A DNA stretch of 64,000 nucleotides from a bacterium (GTDB lineage: Bacteria > Synergistota > GBS-1). Positions 1,233 to 29,688 of this stretch are shown in pieces. Position 1 is the first letter of the stretch. Each line of letters opens with the position of its first letter. A program made the translations under genes and the position numbers. The notes beneath the pieces are model-generated. The model did not search any database, was not told where the DNA came from, and saw only the letters and a list, made by a program, of their open reading frames with translations. The stretch is taken from positions 54,353-118,352 of the forward strand of contig JASKLF010000001.1 of NCBI GenBank assembly GCA_030153785.1, in the 5' to 3' direction.

Positions 1233-2162
1233 CTACACAGTTTCTCCGCACATCCTCAGAACGTAACTCCACTCTCTATCAACGTTCTTTTGTATTTCGT
1301 CTATAAGGTGACGGTTTTCAGGTTTAAATAGATGGCGGAATCTTCCTTGCGGCTTCAGGAACTCCTCGATAGGTTTCTTCTCCTTGGGCTTATAAGAAAG
1401 CTTCCATTCATCGTTTATAACCTCGAATACAGGCCAGAAGCAAGTATCAACAGCAAGCTTACAAATTTTAACCATATCAGCAGGGTTAACCCTCCAAAAC
1501 CTTACGCAAGGAGCAAGCACGTTGATGAAAGCAGGTCCCGGTGTTTCAATAGCCTTTCTAACCTTGTTAACCAGGTCAAGCGGGTTGTGCAAGGTCGTTT
1601 GAGCAACATAAGGAATATGATGGCCTGCAACTATAGCAGTAAGGTCTTTCCTCCACTGCATCTTACCAGGGATAACCTTACCAGCAGGAGCAGTAGTGGT
1701 ATCAGCACACATTGGAGTTCCTCCAGACCTCTGAGCACCTGTATTCATGTATCCCTCATTGTTATAGCATATATACACGAAATCGTGACCCCTCTCAAGA
1801 GCTCCAGAAAGAGCCTGAAAACCTATATCGTAAGTTCCACCATCTCCACCGAAAGCTATAAACTTCACCTCTTTATCTATCTTACCCTTCTTCTTCAAAG
1901 CCTTGTATGCAGCCTCAGCTCCTGATATTGTAGCTGCCGCATTTTCAAAAGCATTATGTATCCATGGTACCCTCCAAGCAGTGTAGGGATATATGGTCGT
2001 AGAAACCTCAAGACACCCCGTAGCACAAGAAACAACTACAGGCTCATTAACCGCAAGCATCACAAGTCTTGCAGTTAAGGCTGCACCACACCCAGGACAT
2101 AGCCTATGTCCATATGCAAGTCTCTCTTCCCTCTTAAGGAGATCTCTAACGGTTAAAGGCAT
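1233..2162 (-). CDS. porB: Pyruvate:ferredoxin (2-oxoacid) oxidoreductase, beta subunit (TPP-binding)
   Basis: The N-terminal Cys cluster (CPGCG...C...C) and the GDG...NN TPP motif are typical of the PorB family. It is the last gene of a G-D-A-B operon. Confidence 0.9.
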   Translation of the reverse strand: MPLTVRDLLKREERLAYGHRLCPGCGAALTARLVMLAVNEPVVVSCATGCLEVSTTIYPYTAWRVPWIHNAFENAAATISGAEAAYKALKKKGKIDKEVKFIAFGGDGGTYDIGFQALSGALERGHDFVYICYNNEGYMNTGAQRSGGTPMCADTTTAPAGKVIPGKMQWRKDLTAIVAGHHIPYVAQTTLHNPLDLVNKVRKAIETPGPAFINVLAPCVRFWRVNPADMVKICKLAVDTCFWPVFEVINDEWKLSYKPKEKKPIEEFLKPQGRFRHLFKPENRHLIDEIQKNVDREWSYVLRMCGETV

Positions 2163-2176
2163 CTAAGTACACCCCC

Positions 2177-3343
2177 TTATTCTCTAACTCCAAGGTACCT
2201 TTCTTCCTTGGAAATGTTACCACTCATAAGATCCTCGTACACGCTTCTTATAAGGGATGGAGGAACGTCTCTTCCGCCAAGGCCATAAATATAGGAAGCT
2301 AAGGCGGGTCTAGCTTTGGCATCATAGAGCGCCGATTTTACCTCACAGAATAGTGGAGCCTCTGCACCTATAGAATAGGCTCTATCCAATACCGCGACGG
2401 CCTTCTTGCCTTCTAACAGGCGAGCGATTTCCTCACCAGGAAATGGACGGAAAAGCCTTATCTTAAGCAAACCAACCTTCTTTCCCTGAGCCCTTAGTTC
2501 CTTGACCACATATTTGGTAGTCCCTGCGGTTGAAGACATAACAACTATTACATAATCCGCGTCGTCTAAATAGAAACCTTCTACCTTGGGATATTTTCTC
2601 CCCGTTAGTTTCGATAGCTCCTCAGCTACCTCATCATAAACACGTGGAACCTGTTTCATCGCTTCAAATTGTTGACGTTTATGCTCAAAGTAGTAATCGG
2701 TGAGAGCCAGAGGTCCATAAGTCTTAGGGTTATCGGTATCAAGCAACGGATACAAAGGCTTATATTCCCCAACAAACTTTTTAACTTCCTCATCATCCAA
2801 AACCTCAACAGACTCAACACCATGAGAGGTTATAAACCCATCCTGACAGACCATAACGGGCAAGCGAACGTCCTCGTGCTCTGCAAGCCTAATTGCTAAA
2901 AGAGCATGATCATATACTTCTTGAGCAGTTTCGCTATAAATTTGAATCCAGCCGGAGTCTCTCTCTGCCATAGCATCGGAATGGTCACAATGTATATTTA
3001 TGGGAGCAGAAAGAGCCCTGTTAACCACTCCCATAACTATGGGAAGCCTTGTGGAAGAAGCTATATAGACAATCTCATGCATGAGAGCCAACCCTTGCGA
3101 AGATGTGGCAGTCATAACACGTGCACCAGCTGCAGCAGCGCCAACACAAGCAGACATCGCAGAATGTTCGCTTTCAACCGTTACGAGTTCCGTATCCACA
3201 AGCCCATCGGCAACGAACTGGGCAAAAGTCATCATTATCTCCGTCTGGGGAGTTATAGGATAAGCAGCAACCACATCCGGATTTATCTGTCTCATAGCTT
3301 CAGCAAAAGCGGCATTTCCTGTTAAAGGAATTCTCTTCTTCAT
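2177..3343 (-). CDS. porA: Pyruvate:ferredoxin oxidoreductase, alpha subunit
   Basis: 388 aa with the PorA-family N-terminus and operon context between porD and porB. Confidence 0.9.
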   Translation of the reverse strand: MKKRIPLTGNAAFAEAMRQINPDVVAAYPITPQTEIMMTFAQFVADGLVDTELVTVESEHSAMSACVGAAAAGARVMTATSSQGLALMHEIVYIASSTRLPIVMGVVNRALSAPINIHCDHSDAMAERDSGWIQIYSETAQEVYDHALLAIRLAEHEDVRLPVMVCQDGFITSHGVESVEVLDDEEVKKFVGEYKPLYPLLDTDNPKTYGPLALTDYYFEHKRQQFEAMKQVPRVYDEVAEELSKLTGRKYPKVEGFYLDDADYVIVVMSSTAGTTKYVVKELRAQGKKVGLLKIRLFRPFPGEEIARLLEGKKAVAVLDRAYSIGAEAPLFCEVKSALYDAKARPALASYIYGLGGRDVPPSLIRSVYEDLMSGNISKEERYLGVRE

Positions 3344-3642
3344 TTCTCTTCACCTTCCTCAAAAAGCGATTCTGGCTTCATCTCTATCGCATTTTTGGGG
3401 CATATACTTGCACAAACGCCACAACCTTTACAATAGTCATAGTTTATGCCACTTACTCTGTTGTCAATAACAAGAATAGATGCATCTGGACAGTGAAGCC
3501 AGCACATGTAGCAATTTATACACTTGTCCTTGTCCCATACTGGCCTTATGCTTCTCCACGTTCCCGTTTTATAATTAACGCTATTTCCCGCCTCAAGCAC
3601 TATTCCTCCTGGCGGAATATCTCTCCATCCTTTAAGACTCAT
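3340..3642 (-). CDS. porD: Pyruvate:ferredoxin oxidoreductase, delta subunit (2x[4Fe-4S] ferredoxin)
   Basis: 100 aa with two CxxCxxCxxxCP motifs (CINCYMCWLHCP, CKGCGVCASICP). Confidence 0.9.
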   Translation of the reverse strand: MSLKGWRDIPPGGIVLEAGNSVNYKTGTWRSIRPVWDKDKCINCYMCWLHCPDASILVIDNRVSGINYDYCKGCGVCASICPKNAIEMKPESLFEEGEEK

Positions 3643-4220
3643 TCTCCTTGCACCTCCTCATAACCACGGCGCATAGCCCTCACATTGGCCTCCACCTTAT
3701 CGGGAGGAAGCTTCCCTTCGAACTTACTCTTAAAGTGTTCCTCAAAAGCTTCAAGAGGGATCTCTCCTATTATTTTGGCAAGTGCACCAAGCATAGGCGT
3801 GTTAGGGAAGTTTACCTTCATCTCTTCAAGCGCAATTTTCGTAGCATCAAGGGTATAGACCTTCTGAGTCTTAAGGCCAAGCTTCTTTTTAACCTCTGCA
3901 GGAGTATGGGGCGTGTTTACAAGAATAATCCCTTCATCCTTCAACCCCTCTGTAACATTTACCGCTGTGAGCAAAGTTGGGTCAACCACCACAACTATAT
4001 CAGGATTTTCTACTTGACAGTGGAGAAGAATCTCCTCCTTACTTAACCTATTGAAAGCCTTCATCGGCGCTCCTGACCTTTCCGCACCATACTCCGGAAA
4101 GGCCTGAATGTGATATCCTCGGTCAAAAAACACTTCGGCCAAGATTTGAGCTCCTGTCTTGGCTCCCTGGCCTCCTCTACCATGCCAACGTACTTCGATG
4201 AGTTTTTCCAAGACTTTCAC
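3639..4220 (-). CDS. porG: Pyruvate:ferredoxin oxidoreductase, gamma subunit
   Basis: 193-aa PorG-family protein. GTG start with an AGGAGGTG RBS. First gene of the operon. Confidence 0.85.
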   Translation of the reverse strand: MKVLEKLIEVRWHGRGGQGAKTGAQILAEVFFDRGYHIQAFPEYGAERSGAPMKAFNRLSKEEILLHCQVENPDIVVVVDPTLLTAVNVTEGLKDEGIILVNTPHTPAEVKKKLGLKTQKVYTLDATKIALEEMKVNFPNTPMLGALAKIIGEIPLEAFEEHFKSKFEGKLPPDKVEANVRAMRRGYEEVQGE

Positions 4221-4251
4221 CTCCTAATCTTACGCCAAATAAACCTTTAGT

Positions 4252-4280
4252 ATTATACACTTATAATCCCAACTTTTCAA
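4252..4280 (-). promoter_or_regulatory. Sigma70-type promoter of the por operon. On the minus strand it reads TTGAAA, a 17-nt spacer, then TATAAT.
   Basis: The reverse complement of 4252-4280 reads TTGAAAagttgggattataagtgTATAAT. This is a near-consensus -35/-10 pair about 30 nt upstream of the porG GTG. Confidence 0.7.
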
Positions 4281-4283
4281 TCT

Positions 4284-4916
4284 CTAAACCTCTTCTATAA
4301 CAAAATTGGACAAATGTTTGGTTTCATTAAGTAGAGTTAAAGTGAATCCTCTTTCCTTCCTATATTCAACAATGCTATAAGAGGCTGTATCGAAATGAAA
4401 CTTCCAGAAATATGGTTTTTTAATCTCAAACATGGCTGCAAAAAGAGGTTTTAAAACCGCTCTATGAGTAACGATAACAACCGTTTCCCCTCTGTGTTCT
4501 TCCAATATCCTTAACAATGCAGAATATGAACGCTCTTTCACATCGTCCACTTTTTCAGCTCCAGGAAGATTAAGATTTTCTGGAACCGTGACCCAAATTC
4601 CCCACTCGCGCGGATATTCTCTCTCTATTTCCTTTTTAACCCTTCCTTCCCATAAACCAAGATTTATGTTATTGAACCCTTCTTCAACTATGGGAGTTAA
4701 ACCATGAGGCTCTCCAACGATTTCAGCTGTTCTTAATGCTCTCGAAAGAGGACTAGAATAAACAACATCTAATTTAAATCTCTTTAGCTCATCCCTTAAA
4801 GCTTCCGCTTGCTTAATACCGTTTCCATTTAAAGGGAAATCTATTCTCCCTCTGAAAAGGCCTGCTCTGTTTCCCTCACATTCTCCATGCCTTATAAAGA
4901 TAAGAGTTGTTTTCAA
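4284..4916 (-). CDS. Histidine phosphatase superfamily protein (phosphoglycerate mutase / CobC-like)
   Basis: N-terminal RHG motif (IFIRHGECEGN) and a downstream SPLxRA motif. 210 aa. It is the distal gene of the lactate cluster transcription unit. Confidence 0.8.
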   Translation of the reverse strand: MKTTLIFIRHGECEGNRAGLFRGRIDFPLNGNGIKQAEALRDELKRFKLDVVYSSPLSRALRTAEIVGEPHGLTPIVEEGFNNINLGLWEGRVKKEIEREYPREWGIWVTVPENLNLPGAEKVDDVKERSYSALLRILEEHRGETVVIVTHRAVLKPLFAAMFEIKKPYFWKFHFDTASYSIVEYRKERGFTLTLLNETKHLSNFVIEEV

Positions 4917-4955: not shown

Positions 4956-6257
4956 TCAATTATCTTTTAAAATAGGTAGCAATTTATGTCCCTCTGGAAT
5001 AATATATGTAGAAGGATGCCTGCCAAGTATCGCTCTCGCCTTCATTATTCCTTCCTCTAAGCTCTTTATAGGCTCCATACCTGTTTTCCTGACTTCCTCA
5101 TCAGGTAAATTAGAAAGAAGGTAGACTTTAAATTTCTCAGCAATTAGCGACATGTGAAAAGCCATATGCCCTCCTATAGTATACTCCCTCCTCAAAGCTT
5201 TCTCTCTTTCTTCATTATTACTATAATCTGTAAAAGTTCTATAAAAGTCCTCGTTTCCTATCCCTTCCCTACACTCAGATAAGGCTATTATTACTCCTCC
5301 CTCCTTGGTAGCCCTCTCAGCATTATACAGAGTCTTGTAAGTCTGATATAGGTTGATATCTTCGGGATAGCCGCCACAGGAAACAATGGTAAGCTCAGCA
5401 AGCTCGTCTATTTCTACCCCGTGAAACTCGTTATAGACCTTGGTTCCTTCTTCATGGGCAGTTATATAGTCTCCAGCAACCACATGGGATATCTTTCTTC
5501 CGGGACCAACAATAACATTAAGTAGAAAATCTGGTTTCAAAAATTTAGCCACTTCAATGGCATCCTCGCTTACCCTATTACCCTGCATAACTCCCGCACA
5601 TACAGTGGGATCAAGCCCCCTGCCCGGCTCCGGGTGAAGTGCAAGCCCATGGTTCTTCATTATGGACCTTCGAGAAGAAATTCCAGGCATTATAGACTTC
5701 TTACCTCCACCGAAACCATACAAGAAATGGTAAACAATCCCACCGGTCAAGATGACCCTATCAGCTTCAAAAGCTTTTTTGTTAAGCTCCACAGGAGTTC
5801 CATAAGTGGTTTCACCAAGATAAACGAGCTCTCCTTCTTCTCGGGCATGATGATTGTATATTCTTCCCTTAAGAAACTCATAAGCTTTATCGCCCAAAAT
5901 TATTCTAAATTCATCTTCAGTTTGTTCCCTATGATCTCCATTGGCACAAAGCGCAAATATATCTTCATCCTCTATTCCAGCGCCTTTAAGTTCCTCTATA
6001 ATGAGAGGAACAAAAATGTTGTGCCTAACCCAGAGTCGAGTGATATCGCTAAAGATTATACAAATCCTTTCCCCCTTTCTTACCAACTCCCTAAGGGGAG
6101 GAGAATCTACCGGGTTAGCAAGAGCCCTAAGAATAATATCCTCCTCGCTAAAAGGTTCTGGCATCTCCTTAGGGCGGAGTATTCCCATAAGATCATCCAA
6201 CTCATACTCGAATTCTACAAAACCGCTACCAAAAGCCAATTTAAAAGTTTCCTTCAT
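4956..6257 (-). CDS. larA: LarA-family (DUF2088) nickel-pincer-cofactor-dependent 2-hydroxyacid racemase. Probable lactate racemase, LctF-like.
   Basis: 433 aa, the size of LarA. It has conserved His-containing segments (NHHARE, KNHGLALHPE) and a GGGKKS lysine segment matching the LarA cofactor-tethering region. It sits next to the LDH and Etf genes. Confidence 0.7.
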   Translation of the reverse strand: MKETFKLAFGSGFVEFEYELDDLMGILRPKEMPEPFSEEDIILRALANPVDSPPLRELVRKGERICIIFSDITRLWVRHNIFVPLIIEELKGAGIEDEDIFALCANGDHREQTEDEFRIILGDKAYEFLKGRIYNHHAREEGELVYLGETTYGTPVELNKKAFEADRVILTGGIVYHFLYGFGGGKKSIMPGISSRRSIMKNHGLALHPEPGRGLDPTVCAGVMQGNRVSEDAIEVAKFLKPDFLLNVIVGPGRKISHVVAGDYITAHEEGTKVYNEFHGVEIDELAELTIVSCGGYPEDINLYQTYKTLYNAERATKEGGVIIALSECREGIGNEDFYRTFTDYSNNEEREKALRREYTIGGHMAFHMSLIAEKFKVYLLSNLPDEEVRKTGMEPIKSLEEGIMKARAILGRHPSTYIIPEGHKLLPILKDN

Positions 6258-6269
6258 GCTTTTGCCCCC

Positions 6270-7688
6270 TCAGAATAACTTGCCGGGGTTCATTATGTTA
6301 TTAGGATCGAAAAGGTTTTTAACTTTCCTCATAAGCTCAATCTCCTGCCTTTTAGTTTCGCTTAAAACCCTCTTTTTAAGAAAGCCTATACCGTGCTCAC
6401 CGCTTACAGCACCACCAAGCTCTGCAGCCTTTAGAGCTATCTTATCAAGAATCTCCTCGGAAAGGTATCTCCAATCTTCTGGAGAAACGTTCGTCGGCTT
6501 TAAAGGGGCAGGATGGAGATTCCCATCGGCAGCATGGGCCGCAACGGGAATCTTAACATCATAAGTTCTTGAAAGCTCTTCTATAAAATTCATCATCTCA
6601 GGGATCTCGGAGGTAGGAACTACCACATCTCCCGTAGAAACATACGGATCCACTGCCCTAAGAGCTTCAAGCCATGTTCTTCTAACCTTCCATATATTCT
6701 CTGAAGCGCTTCTATTGTCCGCTATAAAAACATCAAAAGCTCCGTTATTTAAAAGGGCTTTGCCTACCCTTTCATAAACTTCTTCCAATTCCTTCCTGTT
6801 ATTTCCTTCAAGCTGGACTATTAAAAAGGCCTCAGCTTCATCATGAAAAGGAAGGGTCGTGTTATTATATTCGATTCCAAGCTCAACGGAAACTCTATCT
6901 ATAAACTCCAAGGCTGAAGGGAGCTCCTTGCTCTCCACCAAAACCAAGGGAACACTATCTATGGCATCTTCTACCCTTCTAAACGGCACTAATAAATCTA
7001 CAGTTTTTCCAGGCAAAGGTATCAAGTTCAAGAATATCTTAGAAAAGACGGCCAACGTACCCTCGGATCCCACAAAAAACTTAACGAAGCTATATCCACT
7101 GGAATCTTTCCTTCTTTTACCTCCAAACTCGATTATATCCCCATTAGGAAGAACGGCCTCTATGCCCAAAACGTGGTGTCCCGTATTCCCATACTTTATA
7201 ACTTTGCTTCCCCCTGCATTGGTTGCCACATTCCCTCCGATGAAGCTCGTTTCAACGCTCATAGGATAACCCGCATAATATAAACCCTCCTCCATCACCC
7301 TTTTACATAAATCATTAGTAACAACACCTGGTTCAACCACTGCAACAAGATTCTTTTTATCCACCTCTATTATTCTGTTCATCCTTTCCATAGAAATAAC
7401 TATACCACCAAACAAAGGAACACAACCGCCCGCAAGTCCGCTCCCCGCTCCTCTCGGCGTAACGGGAACTCTTTCCTCGTTAGCGAGTTTCAAGATCTTC
7501 GATATTTGATCAGAACTTTCAGGTTTAACAACCACATCAGGCATATGGGCATAATACTTCCCACCAGATTCATCGTGAGAATAAGCTTCAAGAGCTTCCT
7601 TATTTTCATAAATAACTCCTTTCTCCCCTACTATCCTACGAAGCTCTTTGACTAAAGAGGGAGTAACTTTACCAAACTCATTAACCAT
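6270..7688 (-). CDS. FAD-linked oxidase of the GlcD family. Probable FAD-dependent lactate dehydrogenase of the Etf-coupled Lct complex, LctD-like.
   Basis: 472 aa with an FAD-binding PCMH domain signature (PRGAGSGLAGG) and a C-terminal FAD-oxidase domain. Its start overlaps the etfA stop. Confidence 0.8.
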   Translation of the reverse strand: MVNEFGKVTPSLVKELRRIVGEKGVIYENKEALEAYSHDESGGKYYAHMPDVVVKPESSDQISKILKLANEERVPVTPRGAGSGLAGGCVPLFGGIVISMERMNRIIEVDKKNLVAVVEPGVVTNDLCKRVMEEGLYYAGYPMSVETSFIGGNVATNAGGSKVIKYGNTGHHVLGIEAVLPNGDIIEFGGKRRKDSSGYSFVKFFVGSEGTLAVFSKIFLNLIPLPGKTVDLLVPFRRVEDAIDSVPLVLVESKELPSALEFIDRVSVELGIEYNNTTLPFHDEAEAFLIVQLEGNNRKELEEVYERVGKALLNNGAFDVFIADNRSASENIWKVRRTWLEALRAVDPYVSTGDVVVPTSEIPEMMNFIEELSRTYDVKIPVAAHAADGNLHPAPLKPTNVSPEDWRYLSEEILDKIALKAAELGGAVSGEHGIGFLKKRVLSETKRQEIELMRKVKNLFDPNNIMNPGKLF

Positions 7689-8703
7689 TCTTTTTGCCCT
7701 CCTTGTATTCCCTAAGCCTCTCGATCAGTAAAGGAACTATTTCAAAGAGATCCCCCACGATGCCCAAATCACACACCTTAAATATATTAGCTTCCGGATC
7801 ACTGTTTATGGCAACAATCGTCTCAGAAGAAGACATGCCCGCAAGGTGTTGAACAGCACCAGAAATGCCTATTGCAAAATAAAGCTTAGGAGCAACGGTT
7901 TTCCCACTTAAACCAACCTGGTGAGGATAGGATATCCATCCCATATCAACAGCCGACCTTGAAGCCCCAACTGCCCCACCTAATAGCTGAGCAAGCTCAT
8001 GAATTAGTCTGAAGTTCCTTTCCCCCTTTAACCCCTTTCCCCCAGCTACCACAATATCGGCTTCTTGAAGAGGTGTTTGCGAGGTCTCATCTTTTACAAA
8101 ATCTAAGATCTTGAACTTAGAAAGGTAAAATTCCTCGGGGTATTCTTTTACAATCACCTCTCCTTTACGGGATGTATCCTTGGATAGAGGTTTCCTCGAC
8201 CTCGGCCTAACGGTTGCCATCTGAGGTTTATGTTTAGGAGTTTTTATTGTGGCCATTACATTTCCACCTATCGCAGGTCTCGTTTGAAGAAGAAGACCTG
8301 TCTCGGGCTCTATATCGAGGCCAGTACAATCAGCGGTAAGCCCGGTCCCTATCCTCGTAGCAAGTATGGGCATAATAGTTCTACCCATCGTAGTAGCGGA
8401 GGCTATAAATATCTCCGGACTAAACTCCTTAACCAAAGCCTCAAGAATTCTGGAATATACATCCGGCTTAAAGTGGACCAAAGAAGGGTGATCAACCACG
8501 TAAACCTTATCCGCTCCCCTATATATGAGCTCCTTCACTTTCTCCTTAAGGCCATAACCTATTATCACGCTCGAGAGCTCAACATTGAGCTTGTCTGCAA
8601 GTTCCCTCCCCCAACTTAAAAGTTCATAAGAAACCGAGCTTATCTCACCGTCTCTCTGTTCTCCAAGCGTCCAAACACCCTTGAAAACCTCTTTCCCAAT
8701 CAC
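7681..8703 (-). CDS. etfA: Electron transfer flavoprotein, alpha subunit
   Basis: 340 aa with the EtfA N-terminal domain and C-terminal FAD-binding signature. Directly downstream of etfB. Confidence 0.85.
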   Translation of the reverse strand: MIGKEVFKGVWTLGEQRDGEISSVSYELLSWGRELADKLNVELSSVIIGYGLKEKVKELIYRGADKVYVVDHPSLVHFKPDVYSRILEALVKEFSPEIFIASATTMGRTIMPILATRIGTGLTADCTGLDIEPETGLLLQTRPAIGGNVMATIKTPKHKPQMATVRPRSRKPLSKDTSRKGEVIVKEYPEEFYLSKFKILDFVKDETSQTPLQEADIVVAGGKGLKGERNFRLIHELAQLLGGAVGASRSAVDMGWISYPHQVGLSGKTVAPKLYFAIGISGAVQHLAGMSSSETIVAINSDPEANIFKVCDLGIVGDLFEIVPLLIERLREYKEGKKNG

Positions 8704-8715
8704 AGTGCATCACCC

Positions 8716-9510
8716 CTATAATATCCCTTTGCTTTCAAGAAAACTTATAAGCTCGTCAACTGCTTCCTCAGGATTCTTCCCAGAAATTATCTTCCCGTTC
8801 CTCGATAGCTTAGGATAAAAGATCTTTACAACCCTCGTGGGAGAACCTTCAAGCCCTACAAAACTTCTATTTAAGTTTAGGTCATCAACAGTTAACACAG
8901 GAATTTGCATCTCTTTAGCTCGAAGCTTACCAGCAAGGTTAGGCAATCTTGGCTCATTTATCTCCTTAACAACGCTTAAGAGAACGGGTAATTCTGTTTC
9001 AACTACTTCGTATCCACCTTCCACAGCTCGCCTTACCCTTATATACCTTTCCTCAAGACGTTCTATCTTGCTAACATAAGTTAAAGCGGGAATATTAAGC
9101 CAAGAAGCAACGCTTGGTCCAACCTGACCTGTCTCTCCATCGGTAGCCCTTTCACCACAAAATATGAGGTCGAATCCCCCAAGATATCTAATAGCTCCCG
9201 AAAGGGCATATGCAGTTGCCCAAGTGTCAGAACCAGCGAGAAGCTTGTCAGAAAGGAGATATCCTTCATCGCATCCCATTGAAATAGCATCTTTAACCGC
9301 ATCAACCGCCATAAGTGGCCCCATCGAGATCACCGTTATCCTTGCATTACCACCCAATCTTTCCTTTACACGAACCGCCTCCTCGACAGCATACATATCC
9401 AGCGGGTTTAACTCTGCCTCCATCTCGGTTCTTATCATTGTTCCGGTCTTTTCATCCATCTTTACCTTATCTGTAGCCGGAACCTGCTTAACCAAAACGC
9501 ATATCCTCAC
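8716..9510 (-). CDS. etfB: Electron transfer flavoprotein, beta subunit
   Basis: 264 aa whose N-terminus MRICVLVKQVP...NPLDMYAVEEA is the canonical EtfB start. It overlaps the gntR stop by 4 nt. Confidence 0.85.
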   Translation of the reverse strand: MRICVLVKQVPATDKVKMDEKTGTMIRTEMEAELNPLDMYAVEEAVRVKERLGGNARITVISMGPLMAVDAVKDAISMGCDEGYLLSDKLLAGSDTWATAYALSGAIRYLGGFDLIFCGERATDGETGQVGPSVASWLNIPALTYVSKIERLEERYIRVRRAVEGGYEVVETELPVLLSVVKEINEPRLPNLAGKLRAKEMQIPVLTVDDLNLNRSFVGLEGSPTRVVKIFYPKLSRNGKIISGKNPEEAVDELISFLESKGIL

Positions 9511-10238
9511 AGCTCCTCCCTCCCCATCTCAGAAATTCTCCAAAGAACACCTTCCACATGCAACCTCATCAATTCCTCCACCTCTTTAGCTTTCCTCTGG
9601 ATAATAAGCTCCAGTATTTTCTCATGATCCTCAAGAGACTTTTCCATCACTCCCGTAATATAAAGAGACCTGAGTCTGTATGTGTTGATGTAAGATACAA
9701 TGCTTTCCAACATCCTGGAAAGTCTCTCATTACCCGATGAAAACCATATGAAGCGATGAAACTCGGCATCAAGCTCCGAATAAGCAATTACATCCCTTTC
9801 TTCCGCAACCTTCTTCATTCTCTCAAGTTTTCTCTTGAGATTCTCTATCTCCTCTGCTCCACATCTTTTAGCAAAAAGTTTAACTGCAAGTCCTTCTAAA
9901 ACGCTCCTTATCTGAAAAACGTTCTCTATATCCTTTAAAGAAAATTTCGTCACAAAAGCTCCTTGATTAGGAATAAGCTCAACTAATCCTTCAACAGCAA
10001 GACGACGTATAGCCTCCCTCACAGGAGTCCTACTTGTGCCTAACTGAGAAGCAAGCTGGGTTTCAACCAGTCTACTACCACCCTCTAACTCCCCTTTAAG
10101 AATTGCCTCTTTAATAACCCTATAAACTTTCTGATTTAAAGGCTCATCTCTTTCAACTTTCCCTAACGAAATTCCCTCATCACCTCCTGTATACTGTATA
10201 CAGTATACCATAAGGGGAGCAAAATAAAAAGCTTTCAA
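9507..10238 (-). CDS. GntR/FadR-family transcriptional regulator, LldR/LctA-like
   Basis: Winged-HTH (LASQLGTSRTPVREAIRRLAVEGLV) followed by an FCD-type C-terminal domain. The ORF-track start is a TTG overlapping the upstream stop. The first in-frame ATG, at about 10211, is the more plausible start and gives about 234 aa. Confidence 0.8.
   Translation of the reverse strand: MKAFYFAPLMVYCIQYTGGDEGISLGKVERDEPLNQKVYRVIKEAILKGELEGGSRLVETQLASQLGTSRTPVREAIRRLAVEGLVELIPNQGAFVTKFSLKDIENVFQIRSVLEGLAVKLFAKRCGAEEIENLKRKLERMKKVAEERDVIAYSELDAEFHRFIWFSSGNERLSRMLESIVSYINTYRLRSLYITGVMEKSLEDHEKILELIIQRKAKEVEELMRLHVEGVLWRISEMGREEL
10189..10208. promoter_or_regulatory. Perfect 20-nt palindrome GTATAC-T-GTATAC-A-GTATAC. 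Candidate GntR-family operator, likely autoregulatory for the lct cluster.
   Basis: Three GTATAC hexamers spaced by single nucleotides form a perfect inverted repeat lying across codons 2-8 of the gntR ORF. FadR-subfamily operators are palindromes with GT..AC cores. An AGGAGGTG Shine-Dalgarno-like motif follows immediately. Confidence 0.6.
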
Positions 10239-11331
10239 CGCAACAAATGAATATTACCAAGAGAAACATTTTTTAAACCCGCATTAACAGCTATTTCATA
10301 ACACCTATATGCTTGTTCTTTAGAGGTTAAAGGCAGGTCCTTCATATAAAATTGGGGGTAAAAGGCAAGCAATCTGTAAGGAATATTTTCATTTATCTTA
10401 GCAATAAAGGTAGCTATTCCTTCCACTTCCCTCTCATCCACATACCCTGGGACAAGAAGGGTACTAGCGATAAGGAGGGGAACCTCTGGTCTTCTTACAA
10501 TGTATTGAGCTACAAAACCAAAGTTATCCAGAATCTTTTTGTTCGAAACCCCAGTTAAAGCGATATGAAGGGCTTCGTTCCAAGCCTTAAGATCAAACTT
10601 AATGCATCCCCCGGAAAACAATGAAAGCTCCACAACATCTTTTAAAAGCCCTCTATTCATTAATCCATTGGTCTCCCAGCATATTCTTAAAATTCTTCCT
10701 TTCGTCTTTTGAATAGCTTCCCTCGAAACTTTTATAGCAAAAGGAAGCTGAGGAGAAGGATCACCCCCAAAAAAACATATGCAAGAAACCTTCGAATCGA
10801 TGGAAGCTAAAATCTCTTCCACCCTTTTAGTTTCAGGACTAAGGGCGAGCTTCTTAAACTGCCAATTTTGACAGAAAAGGCAATTTAAGCTACACGCATG
10901 GAAAAATACCGCTAAGTTATAGTAGCCATATTCAGGCCCACGCGCATAAGCATAATCAGGGTATCCGCAACCCGTGCCTCCAGGGCAAACCCAGTCGGCA
11001 ACACAATTCGTAGGGAGAGGGTCTAAATACCACGAAACCTTTGCCTCCCCGTAGGAAGGCCCCTTCAAGTTCTTTCCTATATTCCTTCTTAAGCCACAAA
11101 AGCCATACTCATCTTCCGGCACTTGACATTCATTAGCACATAAATTACACTTAATTCCCACAGGGCTTCTGGGAATGGGGAAAGGAAGGTTAAAGTAGGC
11201 TTTTCTGCTTTCCTGGTGGGCCTTCATAACAAACGGTAAGGCCTCTTGAGGAAAGTCTCTAATACAATCAACACAGACTCCTAATAACTGTGAAATAATA
11301 GGAACTTTCCTTTTACATATTTGGCAAATCA
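10235..11331 (-). CDS. Radical SAM protein of the PflX / PFL-activating-enzyme-like family, with an N-terminal CxxC...CxxC zinc-ribbon
   Basis: CSLNCLFCQNW matches the CxxxCxxC radical-SAM motif. The N-terminus carries CQIC...CVDC. The ORF track extends to 11491, but the ATG at about 11331 (MICQICKRK) with a GGGGGT RBS avoids overlap with the divergent gene at 11376. Confidence 0.7.
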
Positions 11332-11375
11332 TATTTACCCCCAACAAGGATTTTATCATAAGGGAGTGAGAAACA

Positions 11376-12317
11376 TTGAGGCGTTGTAAAATTTGCCAAA
11401 AGGAAGCGGTTGTTTTCTTCAAGTCACATAGAATATCCCTATGTGAGGAACATCTTAAAAGTTTTGTAGAAAAGAGAGTTAAGGAAGCCATTAAATCTCA
11501 TAAAATGATAAACAGGGGAGAAAAGATCCTGATTGCTGTCTCTGGTGGAAAAGATAGCTTAAGCTTATGGCAAATATTGACAAATTTGGGATACGAAGCT
11601 GACGGCATGTTTATCGACCTTGGAATTCCAGGATTTTCTCAAGAATCGTGGGAAAAATGTGAAAAGCTCTCCCGAAGACTTTCAAGGAAGCTATTTAAAA
11701 CGAGCTTAGAGGAAATCTTTGGCATGAACCTGCTTGATATAGCCAAATTGGAAAGAAGAGTTCCTTGCGCTTCCTGCGGAATGATAAAAAGATATATAAT
11801 GAATAATTTTGCCCTAAAAAACGGATATAAGGTTATAGCCACAGGGCATCACCTTGATGACGAATGCTCTATCCTACTCGGAAATGTTCTCAATTGGCAA
11901 GTAGAATACTTAAGGAGGCAAGACCCATCTCTCAAAGAGGAAAATGGGTTTGTAAGGAAAATAAAGCCACTTGTTTTATGCAGCGAAGAGGAGATAGAAA
12001 ACTATGCAAGAGTTATGAATATAGACCACGTGGGGAAAGGATGCCCTCTCTCAAAAGGAGCAACGTCTCACTTTTACAAAAGCATAATGAACCAAATAGA
12101 GGAGAAAATGCCTGGAACAAAACTTCGGTTCTATAAAGGCTTTCTAAAAATAAAGAAAGATACCTTCGGGGATGAAAAACCAGCTGAGCTTAAACCTTGC
12201 ATTAGATGTGGCTATCCTACAACTGCTGAGATCTGTTCCTTTTGCAGACTTCACGAGAGGATCAAGACCAAAATTTCGCAACAAAATCCTGAAAAGATGG
12301 AGGAACCCTTATCCTAA
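11376..12317 (+). CDS. PP-loop ATPase of the TtuA/TtcA/NcsA family. Probable tRNA 2-thiolation enzyme with two zinc-fingers and a CxxC...C Fe-S site.
   Basis: SGGKDS PP-loop; N-terminal CKIC...C...H; internal CASCG and GHHLDD; C-terminal CIRCG...CSFC. TTG start with an AGGGAG RBS. Confidence 0.75.
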   Translation: MRRCKICQKEAVVFFKSHRISLCEEHLKSFVEKRVKEAIKSHKMINRGEKILIAVSGGKDSLSLWQILTNLGYEADGMFIDLGIPGFSQESWEKCEKLSRRLSRKLFKTSLEEIFGMNLLDIAKLERRVPCASCGMIKRYIMNNFALKNGYKVIATGHHLDDECSILLGNVLNWQVEYLRRQDPSLKEENGFVRKIKPLVLCSEEEIENYARVMNIDHVGKGCPLSKGATSHFYKSIMNQIEEKMPGTKLRFYKGFLKIKKDTFGDEKPAELKPCIRCGYPTTAEICSFCRLHERIKTKISQQNPEKMEEPLS

Positions 12318-29638: not shown

Positions 29639-29654
29639 AACTAACTGCGGAGGC

Positions 29655-29682
29655 TCTAAAGAGCCTCCGCAGTGTATACTCT
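29655..29682 (-). terminator. Hairpin CTGCGGAGGCTCT..AGAGCCTCCGCAG, terminator after the nhaC-family gene
   Basis: 12-13-bp GC-rich stem, followed on the minus strand by ttagttttgattt. Confidence 0.6.
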
Positions 29683-29688
29683 ATCCAA

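What the first reader, a model, noticed from the sequence alone, without database searches (positions are those of the whole stretch)
10189..10208. Perfect triple-GTATAC 20-nt palindrome at the start of the lactate-cluster GntR regulator gene
GTATAC-T-GTATAC-A-GTATAC is a perfect inverted repeat. It sits exactly where the GntR/FadR-family regulator begins (codons 2-8 from the ATG at about 10211), and the first gene of the Etf-LDH-racemase cluster follows. FadR-type operators are GT..AC-core palindromes, so this is the most likely autoregulatory, lactate-responsive operator of the cluster. The regulator start overlaps the stop of the upstream radical SAM gene, which implies an internal promoter (candidate TGgTAATAT at about 10258-10266 on the minus strand) rather than co-transcription with that gene. 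Nothing else in the window resembles this repeat.
Basis: seen in the sequence. Interest (0 to 1): 0.6.

Follow-up and report, generated by a model that had tools for sequence, protein, structure and literature searches.

The report
Conserved operator of lactate-cluster GntR regulator
A perfect 20-base palindrome of three GTATAC units lies just upstream of, not inside, a GntR-family regulator gene that heads a lactate-oxidation gene cluster; it is almost certainly that repressor's own binding site, an ordinary kind of switch with a somewhat unusual repeat layout.

Summary
The palindrome GTATACTGTATACAGTATAC is at 10189-10208 and is unique in the window. No shuffle gave a match, even with 3 mismatches.

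It is conserved where little else is. Seven related loci were aligned, representing the window plus six orthologue groups at 59-71% protein identity. All seven share an invariant 13-nt core, TATACTGTATACA. Five keep the full 20-mer. The site travels with the GntR/FCD gene even where the upstream radical-SAM gene is absent.

No change is compensatory, so an RNA hairpin is unlikely. FCD-type GntR regulators are known experimentally to bind GTATAC cores (DipR; Atu1419, ATGTATACAT). More distant homologues carry TGTATACA or 7-bp-phased GTATAC arrays at their own promoters.

Best reading: an autoregulatory operator of an lct-like operon (regulator, EtfBA, LDH, LarA).

Orthologues have in-frame stop codons between the palindrome and the conserved N-terminus, so the palindrome is non-coding. 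The real start is probably ATT at 10172, behind the Shine-Dalgarno sequence (SD) AGGAGGTGAT. The proposed TGGTAATAT promoter is not conserved. TGGTATACT, formed by the left arm, is the better -10 candidate.

This is a new member of a known kind, of modest interest.

The parts
10189..10208 (.). 20-nt perfect palindrome GTATAC-T-GTATAC-A-GTATAC; proposed operator of the GntR/FCD regulator
   Evidence: Sequence read directly. Unique in the window, 0/100 shuffles. Identical 20-mer in L001-L003, L004/L185, L005 and L010.
10195..10207 (-). Invariant 13-nt core TATACTGTATACA (left and central hexamers, gene orientation)
   Evidence: Invariant columns in alignment A3 of 7 loci, with no comparably long invariant run elsewhere in it. 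In L009 and L006 only the right hexamer (and one base of the left in L006) is degenerate.
10202..10210 (-). TGGTATACT, an extended -10-like motif (TGnTATAAT) formed by the left arm of the palindrome; candidate promoter element (inferred)
   Evidence: TGG precedes the palindrome in all six radical-SAM-linked or contig-cut loci. L005 and L009 have TTGCAC and TTGAGT exactly 17 nt upstream. The simple sigma-70 scan found no canonical minus-strand promoter here.
10179..10188 (-). Shine-Dalgarno sequence AGGAGGTGAT, 1 nt downstream of the palindrome
   Evidence: GG.GG.G is conserved in all 7 loci. It matches the SD form and spacing seen at many other genes of the window.
10170..10172 (-). ATT, probable non-canonical start codon of the regulator (gives 221 aa)
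   Evidence: It lies 6 nt after the SD. The homologous codon is ATA (L001, L004/L185, L005, L010), ATC (L009), or ATT preceded by GTG (L006). The record for GCA_025060595.1 starts the orthologue at this ATA (P0122, L185 1501). L004 and L010 have a stop codon immediately before it and no canonical start before the wHTH.
9507..10172 (-). GntR (wHTH) + FCD regulator gene, LctA-like by context
   Evidence: Pfam PF00392 (2.2e-18) and PF07729 (3.6e-28). Orthologues P0002-P0007 at 59-71% identity. Among the closest solved structures is Atu1419, 6Z74.
10209..10211 (-). ATG used by the public annotation (234 aa); judged not the real start
   Evidence: No SD upstream. It adds 13 residues that orthologues lack. 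Orthologues have stops in this stretch.
10235..11491 (-). Upstream radical-SAM gene (activase-like). The true start is probably near 11332. Its stop TGA is at 10237-10235, 26 nt before the palindrome.
   Evidence: Pfam PF04055. Orthologues are 364 aa. The gene is absent upstream of the regulator in L006/L007, where the operator is still present.
8716..9510 (-). EtfB; its GTG start overlaps the regulator's stop (GTGA)
   Evidence: Pfam PF01012; sequence.
7681..8703 (-). EtfA
   Evidence: Pfam PF01012 and PF00766.
6270..7688 (-). GlcD-type FAD-linked 2-hydroxyacid (lactate) dehydrogenase
   Evidence: Pfam PF01565 and PF02913; TIGR00387 below its cutoff.
4956..6257 (-). LarA-family nickel-pincer 2-hydroxyacid racemase
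   Evidence: Pfam PF09861 and PF21113. Best NCBIfam match is the LarAH10 family, below its cutoff.

Best explanation
The palindrome is the DNA operator of the GntR/FCD repressor encoded immediately downstream. It sits in the non-coding 5' region of an operon that runs regulator, etfB, etfA, LDH, larA. It lies 1 nt upstream of the regulator's SD, and its left arm forms the likely extended -10 element (TGGTATACT). Without effector, the regulator dimer(s) bind the GTATAC units and block initiation or early elongation. That represses both the regulator and the lactate-oxidation enzymes. Binding of lactate, or a related 2-hydroxyacid, at the metal site of the FCD domain releases the protein and the operon is transcribed. 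The central T-GTATAC-A and the left hexamer are the essential units. The third hexamer adds affinity or a further binding register. Shown here: the sequence, its uniqueness, its conservation, its non-coding position and its association with this regulator clade. Inferred: binding, effector identity, promoter position and stoichiometry.
For: 1. Conservation. The 20-mer is identical in five aligned loci (window, L001, L004/L185, L005, L010). The 13-nt core is invariant in all seven aligned loci, although the regulators are only 59-71% identical and the flanks diverge.
2. The site follows the regulator, not the radical-SAM gene. L006/L007 lack that gene. There the site lies 12 nt downstream of a canonical TTGACT-17-TATAAT promoter and just upstream of the SD.
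3. It is non-coding. There are in-frame stops in L001, L004/L185 and L010, orthologues are shorter, and an SD lies between the site and the start.
4. Precedent. DipR, a GntR/FadR-family regulator, binds GTATAC by EMSA, footprinting and mutagenesis (PMC11472048). Atu1419 (FCD) was crystallised on ATGTATACAT, and its palindromes overlap -10 boxes (PMC7797058). Atu1419 (6Z74) is the fourth-best PDB match (E 2.4e-20). Its DNA-contact residues Glu34, Ser44, Arg45, Thr46 and Arg49 align with E37, S47, R48, T49 and R52 here.
5. Same operator class in distant relatives. TGTATACA lies in promoter-like sequence upstream of homologues at 28-42% identity (L021, L023, L024, L186), including 7-bp-phased repeats. 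In a metagenome scan for GTATAC-N-GTATAC-N-GTATAC, all six GntR/FCD genes present in the hit loci lie within 42 nt of the array. L046 and L146 carry the identical 20-mer in a GC-rich divergent intergenic region.
6. No compensatory change across the stem.
7. The lct cluster type is known to be lactate-induced and repressed by a GntR-family LctA (PMC8914356; PMC12910521).
Against: There are no binding data for this protein. No canonical -35 element is present in the window (TTTTTA), and the simple promoter scan found nothing on the minus strand. The promoter position, and whether the operon is also read through from the radical-SAM gene, are therefore open. Only six orthologue groups beyond the window were available, all from one lineage (Synergistota class GBS-1-like MAGs). 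The A. woodii LctA operator is a different sequence, TGGT(CTG)ACCA, at a different place, so function cannot be transferred by orthology. GTATACN heptamer arrays are also common as plain tandem repeats unrelated to GntR genes. The motif alone is therefore not diagnostic.
Confidence: 0.8

Rival explanations
1. The palindrome acts as RNA. An 8-bp, 4-nt-loop hairpin in the 5' leader, directly next to the SD, would modulate translation, mRNA stability or processing between the radical-SAM and regulator cistrons.
For: The hairpin forms in the predicted fold. In the window the flanking CCUU can pair with part of the SD. The site abuts the SD in all loci.
Against: The leader fold is not better than shuffles (z -1.45, 19/200). 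All five departures from pairing in orthologues are uncompensated, with 0 compensatory pairs. The stem is AU-rich, which is weak for what appears, from my own recollection, to be a hot-environment lineage. There is no Rfam match. The same motif occurs between divergent genes and inside -35/-10 regions of distant homologues, where it would not be in the regulator's transcript.
Confidence: 0.07
2. The site is an operator, but for a different transcription factor encoded elsewhere, such as a HutC-type GntR or a global regulator, and not for the adjacent FCD protein.
For: No binding data exist. Several GntR subfamilies recognise GT-Nx-AC palindromes.
Against: The site co-occurs strictly with this regulator gene in every locus, including those with different neighbours. 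Distant FCD homologues carry the same core at their own genes. There is a single copy in 64 kb.
Confidence: 0.07
3. The palindrome is coding sequence, as in the public annotation. It would encode VYCIQYT in an N-terminal extension, with conservation reflecting the protein.
For: ATG 10211 is in frame with no stop before the wHTH. GenBank KUK14315.1 uses it.
Against: The palindrome has no stop codon in any frame, so an open frame means nothing. Orthologues have in-frame TGA or TAA after the same palindrome. There is no SD before the ATG, but a 10-nt SD after the palindrome. DNA identity is 100% where synonymous change would be expected.
Confidence: 0.03
4. It is a chance or generic heptamer repeat (GTATACN)n with no function, like the arrays common in metagenomes and viral contigs.
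For: At least 120 metagenome loci and 32 viral loci carry triple GTATAC arrays. Most are plain tandem repeats with no GntR gene nearby.
Against: 0/100 shuffles. The position and sequence are conserved across orthologue groups.
Confidence: 0.01

Closest known systems
Atu1419 (Agrobacterium fabrum GntR/FCD repressor) and its ATGTATACAT operators (PMC7797058; PDB 6Z74, 6ZA3, 6ZAB)
   Same: It is an FCD-type GntR. The operator core TGTATACA is identical to the central 8-mer here. Its palindromes overlap the -10 box. The contact residues Glu, Ser-Arg-Thr and Arg are conserved in the window protein.
   Different: Atu1419 uses separate single 10-mers, not three hexamers in 7-bp phase. It is a tetramer that responds to a hydroxycinnamate-pathway intermediate. 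The wing tip differs (Gly66 aligns with Asn69 here). The match is an alignment E-value of 2.4e-20, not orthology.
DipR (Alcaligenes faecalis GntR/FadR-family repressor of dipicolinate catabolism) and its GWATAC sites (PMC11472048)
   Same: The GTATAC hexamer is the essential recognition unit. It is an autoregulated repressor released by a carboxylate effector. The motif is conserved across orthologous clusters.
   Different: It has one hexamer per about 23-bp footprint, at six separate promoters. The effector and pathway differ. No sequence comparison with DipR was made here.
LctA and the lctABCDEF cluster of Acetobacterium woodii and gut Firmicutes
   Same: A GntR-family regulator is linked to EtfB, EtfA, a FAD-dependent LDH and a lactate racemase. 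In those organisms the system is lactate-inducible, with LctA a repressor released by lactate.
   Different: The A. woodii operator is TGGT(CTG)ACCA, in the lctA-lctB intergenic region. Here the regulator stop overlaps the etfB start. The only operator is upstream of the regulator and is of the GTATAC type. Identity to A. woodii LctA was not measured.
MetJ met-box arrays (recalled from general knowledge, not tested)
   Same: Short self-symmetric units repeat head to tail in a tight phase (8 bp for MetJ, 7 bp here), with 2-5 units per operator.
   Different: MetJ has a ribbon-helix-helix fold and is a different protein family. Multi-dimer occupancy here is speculation.

Membership tests
GntR/FadR(FCD)-family operator | Palindrome with a GT-Nx-AC core | tested here: met
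   Three GT-AT-AC units. The central T-GTATAC-A equals the Atu1419 core.
GntR/FadR(FCD)-family operator | Lies in the non-coding promoter or 5' region of the regulated or regulator gene | tested here: met
   It is upstream of the SD and of the conserved N-terminus, with stops in orthologues. In L006 it is 12 nt downstream of TTGACT-17-TATAAT.
GntR/FadR(FCD)-family operator | Conserved at orthologous loci while the flanks diverge | tested here: met
   Alignment A3: 13 invariant nt in 7 loci, with the full 20-mer in 5.
GntR/FadR(FCD)-family operator | Bound by the cognate regulator and released by its effector | not testable with these tools
   Needs EMSA or footprinting.
GntR family, FCD subfamily (the protein) | N-terminal GntR wHTH plus C-terminal FCD domain with conserved His residues | tested here: met
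   PF00392 and PF07729 are above their cutoffs. H161, H205 and H227 are invariant and D149 nearly invariant in A1. That these are the FCD metal ligands rests on general knowledge of the domain.
lct (LctA-type) lactate utilisation operon | GntR regulator with EtfB, EtfA, FAD-LDH and lactate racemase or permease in one cluster | tested here: met
   Pfam. The same order is found in L001, L004, L005 and L009. L006 has a lactate permease instead of LarA.
lct (LctA-type) lactate utilisation operon | Operator TGGT(N3)ACCA between lctA and lctB, as in A. woodii | tested here: not met
   The regulator stop overlaps the etfB start. The operator is of the GTATAC type and lies upstream of the regulator (for the A. 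woodii site).
lct (LctA-type) lactate utilisation operon | Induction by lactate | not testable with these tools
   Context only. The LarA homologue scores best against the LarAH10 2-hydroxyacid racemase model and below the LarA cutoff, so another 2-hydroxyacid is possible.
Structured RNA element or intrinsic terminator | Pairing maintained by compensatory changes; for a terminator, a GC-rich stem followed by a T-run | tested here: not met
   0 compensatory pairs and 5 unpaired departures. The fold z-score is -1.45. The stem is AU-rich and is followed by AGGAGG. The terminator scan did not list it. No Rfam family matched.
Sigma-70 promoter with extended -10 | TGnTATAAT-like element with a -35 at 16-18 nt, or none required | tested here: inconclusive
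   TGGTATACT is conserved in 6 loci. L005 and L009 have TTGNNN at 17 nt, while the window and L004 have only TTTTTA and TTTATT. The consensus scan was negative.

The most novel reading that the evidence does not exclude
The three GTATAC hexamers in strict 7-bp phase may not be one dimer site with decorated flanks. They may be an array that loads two or three FCD dimers around the helix, MetJ-like, which would be an operator architecture not described for the GntR family. The same phased arrays, with 3-5 units and spacers that are palindromic or direct, recur next to unrelated GntR/FCD genes (L015, L024, L044, L046, L048, L049, L126). In this lineage the array is paired with a conserved non-canonical AUU/AUA/AUC start codon. 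That codon would throttle translation of the regulator, the first cistron, relative to the enzymes behind it.
Probability: 0.2. Interest if true: 0.5.

Novelty: new member of a known kind. Interest (0 to 1): 0.3.

Why it matters
The result gives a concrete, testable operator for an uncultured thermophilic Synergistota-like lineage that oxidises lactate by the Etf/LDH route. It corrects the public gene model of the regulator, placing the start 39 nt downstream at a non-canonical codon. It shows that lct-type clusters do not share one operator: this one is GTATAC-type, whereas A. woodii uses TGGT-N3-ACCA. It also suggests that phased GTATAC arrays are a recurrent operator design in one clade of FCD regulators. 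That could help regulon prediction and the design of lactate-inducible switches. None of this changes how GntR repressors are understood to work.

Tried and rejected
- Regulon search in the window. The 20-mer with 3 mismatches, the 13-mer and the two-hexamer pattern with 2 mismatches gave only one weak site (29674-29687), next to a terminator-like hairpin. It was judged chance.
It is not conserved.
- Consensus sigma-70 and terminator scan. Nothing fell on the minus strand at the site.
- Rfam. Only a sub-threshold snoRNA hit, which is noise.
- Genome-collection scan with the regulator alignment. Only one close orthologue was found (bacterium GBS-1). The rest were paralogous FCD regulators at 37% identity or less.
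- Metagenome scan for the degenerate triple hexamer. No orthologous lct locus was among the rows, so the regulon of the source genome could not be explored.
- Next-closest homologues (P0014, P0017, P0027). They sit in unrelated contexts: fumarase/malic enzyme, and an ispE/ispD-like neighbourhood. The lct-linked orthologue group is therefore small.
- A uORF or frameshift as an alternative to the AUH start. An out-of-frame ATG lies inside the SD (GGAGGTGATG) in four loci, but only 2 nt after GGAGG, and it is absent from L005, L006 and L009. I rejected it as the less parsimonious reading.

Full report
**1. Observation**

The + strand reads GTATACTGTATACAGTATAC at 10189-10208. This is three GTATAC hexamers separated by T and A, and it is a perfect 20-nt inverted repeat. 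It is the only match in the 64-kb window even with 3 mismatches. No match arose in 100 dinucleotide-preserving shuffles. The window holds ten GTATAC hexamers in all, against 6.2 expected, and three of them are here. The central TGTATACA is unique.

**2. Gene context**

All genes below are on the minus strand (Pfam, NCBIfam):

| Gene | Coordinates |
|---|---|
| Radical-SAM activase-like gene | 10235-11491 |
| GntR wHTH + FCD regulator | 9507 onward |
| EtfB (start overlaps the regulator stop) | 8716-9510 |
| EtfA | 7681-8703 |
| GlcD-type FAD dehydrogenase | 6270-7688 |
| LarA-family racemase | 4956-6257 |

This is the lct-type lactate-utilisation layout known from Acetobacterium woodii and gut Firmicutes. 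The regulator protein is identical to KUK14315.1 of 'bacterium 42_11'. Other records label it a Synergistota MAG.

**3. The palindrome is not coding**

The mechanical ORF starts at TTG 10238, and the public annotation starts at ATG 10211. With either start the palindrome would be translated. Five lines of evidence argue against this.

- The six orthologue groups (P0002-P0007, 59-71% identity) are 187-224 aa. Their N-termini align with residue 14 of the 234-aa model, at ISL(G/R)KVE.
- Orthologous loci carry the same palindrome followed by an in-frame stop before that N-terminus: TGA in L001, TAA in L004/L185 and TGA in L010.
- A 10-nt SD, AGGAGGTGAT (10188-10179), follows the palindrome by one base. 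An equivalent purine-rich SD sits at this position in all loci. It has the form and spacing seen at many other genes of the window. No SD precedes ATG 10211.
- Five or six nt after the SD every locus has an AUH codon: ATT in the window, ATA in L001, L004, L005 and L010, and ATC in L009. L006 has GTG-ATT. L004 and L010 have no canonical start between that codon and the middle of the wHTH, so gene callers there produced CTG-started or truncated models of 210 and 187 aa.
- The record of GCA_025060595.1 starts the orthologue exactly at this ATA (P0122, 221 aa).

The palindrome contains no stop codon in any frame, so the open frame in the window carries no weight. I place the start at ATT 10172-10170, which gives 221 aa. 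The radical-SAM stop (10237-10235) is then 26 nt from the palindrome and about 62 nt from the regulator start. The two genes do not overlap.

**4. Conservation**

Alignment A3 covers seven loci: the window plus six orthologue groups.

- TATACTGTATACA is invariant in all seven (window 10207-10195, gene orientation).
- The whole 20-mer is identical in five.
- No other invariant run in the alignment is comparably long.
- L009 has GTCCAC as its right hexamer. L006 has ATATAC on the left and ATCTAC on the right.
- In L004/L185 the symmetry extends to 28 nt (TGTGGTATAC...GTATACCACA).
- L006/L007 have no radical-SAM gene upstream. Their site lies 12 nt downstream of a canonical TTGACT-17-TATAAT promoter, in a 220-nt divergent intergenic region.

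The element therefore belongs to the regulator gene. It is not part of the radical-SAM 3' end.

**5. DNA site or RNA structure**

The 8-bp hairpin forms trivially. The leader as a whole folds no better than shuffles (z -1.45). Across A3 the stem shows 0 compensatory changes and 5 uncompensated departures. Rfam has nothing here. The stem is AU-rich and is followed by the SD, with no T-run after it, so it is not an intrinsic terminator. Sequence is conserved and pairing is not selected for. The sample is small, but this pattern points to protein recognition of DNA.

**6. Link to the regulator family**

- DipR, a GntR/FadR-family repressor, needs GTATAC for binding. This was shown by EMSA, footprinting and mutagenesis (PMC11472048).
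- Atu1419, an FCD-type GntR, was crystallised on ATGTATACAT. Its palindromes overlap -10 boxes (PMC7797058).
- Atu1419 (6Z74) is the fourth-best PDB match of the window protein (E 2.4e-20). Its contact residues Glu34, Ser44, Arg45, Thr46 and Arg49 align with E37, S47, R48, T49 and R52. The wing Gly66 aligns with Asn69. These residues are widely conserved in the family, so this shows compatibility and does not show specificity.
- Among 21 distant FCD homologues from a genome scan (L012-L032), three have TGTATACA within 300 nt upstream of the gene, four copies in all. My own estimate is about 0.1 copies expected by chance. Further copies sit at neighbouring genes. In L021 and L023 the layout is TTGACA-N11-TGTATACA. 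In L024 it is TGTATACAGAATACA, twice.
- L186 (42% identity, a fumarase/malic-enzyme cluster) has ATGTATAATGTATACAT after a TTGACT-16-TATATT promoter.
- A metagenome scan for GTATAC-N-GTATAC-N-GTATAC returned at least 120 loci. Most are plain heptamer repeats. The hit loci contain six GntR/FCD genes, and all six lie within 42 nt of the array (L044, L046, L048, L049, L126, L146).
- L046 and L146 carry the identical 20-mer in a GC-rich divergent intergenic region. L049 has TTGACA-N7-(GGTATAC)x4 directly before the start codon.

Phased GTATAC arrays are therefore a recurring operator design for this clade of FCD regulators.

**7. Promoter**

It reads AGGAAATAT, AGGAAACGT and GGGAAACGT in orthologues, so it is not supported.

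The left arm plus the preceding TG gives TGGTATACT, an extended -10 form. It is conserved in six loci. L005 and L009 add TTGCAC and TTGAGT at exactly 17 nt. The window and L004 have only T-rich sequence there. A strict consensus scan finds no minus-strand promoter.

I regard an operator-overlapped extended -10 promoter as the most likely arrangement. Read-through from the radical-SAM gene with the operator as a roadblock remains possible. This step is inferred.

**8. Mechanism proposed**

This is negative autoregulation. Apo-regulator binds the hexamer array and blocks transcription of regulator-etfBA-LDH-larA. A 2-hydroxyacid binds at the FCD metal site and releases it. The conserved residues there are His161, His205 and His227, with Asp149 nearly invariant (243-aa numbering).

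Lactate is the obvious candidate effector by analogy with LctA. However, the LarA homologue scores best against the LarAH10 2-hydroxyacid racemase model, so the effector is not settled.

A weak AUU start would keep the first-cistron regulator scarce relative to the enzymes. This is my inference.

Stoichiometry is unknown. It could be one dimer on the central unit with flanking contacts, or two to three dimers in 7-bp phase.

**9. Comparison and novelty**

It works like the DipR and Atu1419 operators and like the LctA switch. It is not the A. woodii operator, which is TGGT(CTG)ACCA between lctA and lctB. I rate it a new member of a known kind. The phased triple array and the conserved non-canonical start codon are the only mildly unusual aspects.

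**10. Verdict**

- The operator interpretation is well supported, at 0.8.
- The coding-overlap, start/stop-overlap and promoter claims are not supported.
- Interest is 0.3.

Noticed in passing
window 10170-10172 (minus strand); L185 1501-1503; L004 3968-3970; L010 42-44; L001 42-44; L005 4010-4012; L009 4010-4012: The regulator appears to start at a non-canonical AUH codon: ATT in the window, ATA in four orthologue groups and ATC in one. The codon lies 4-6 nt (5-6 in most loci) after a strong SD. L004 and L010 have a stop codon immediately before it and no ATG, GTG or TTG before the middle of the wHTH. One NCBI record annotates the ATA start. Public models of this gene are inconsistent (187, 201, 210, 219, 221, 224, 234 and 243 aa).
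   Followed up: partly
L001, L002, L003, L010, position 1: Four independent Logan assemblies have contigs that end exactly at the first base of TGGTATACTGTATACAGTATACCA. The palindrome, or variation just upstream of it, seems to break the assembly graphs.
   Followed up: no
window 10235-11491 (minus strand): The radical-SAM ORF is 418 aa, but orthologues are 364 aa. The real start is probably the Met near 11332. That start would remove the apparent overlap with the divergent TtuA-like gene (11376-12317, + strand).
   Followed up: partly
window 4956-6257 (minus strand): The LarA homologue scores highest against the NCBIfam LarAH10 '2-hydroxyacid racemase' model (476.7 bits, cutoff 540). It scores lower against the lactate racemase model (312.1, cutoff 460). 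The substrate of the cluster may be broader than lactate.
   Followed up: no
window 1233-4916 (minus strand): Directly downstream on the same strand lie a histidine-phosphatase-family gene and what look, from reading the ORF translations, like 2-oxoacid:ferredoxin oxidoreductase subunits. If so, they would take the pyruvate made by the LDH. They may belong to the same transcription unit.
   Followed up: no
window 29645-29687: A perfect 13-bp-stem hairpin, CTGCGGAGGCTCT-AA-AGAGCCTCCGCAG, lies in a 50-nt gap between two minus-strand genes. It is followed by GTATACTCTATCCA, the only other weak match to the operator core (2 mismatches). It is probably a terminator plus a chance match.
   Followed up: no
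L015 6412-6435: The Sedimenticola hydrogenitrophicus locus carries TGTATACAATATACCGTATACAAT, three hexamers in 7-bp phase, about 2.7 kb downstream of a distant FCD homologue. The target gene was not identified.
   Followed up: no
L085, L113, L118, L078, L165, L184 and others: Long direct (GTATACN)n heptamer tandem arrays are common in metagenome and viral contigs with no GntR gene nearby. Several viral hits share the flank GGGGCGCATGAC/T, which suggests a repeated phage element.
   Followed up: no
L004 3925-3952; L185 1458-1485: In this orthologue the symmetry extends to a perfect 28-nt palindrome, TGTGGTATACTGTATACAGTATACCACA. In the window it stops at 20 nt.
   Followed up: no
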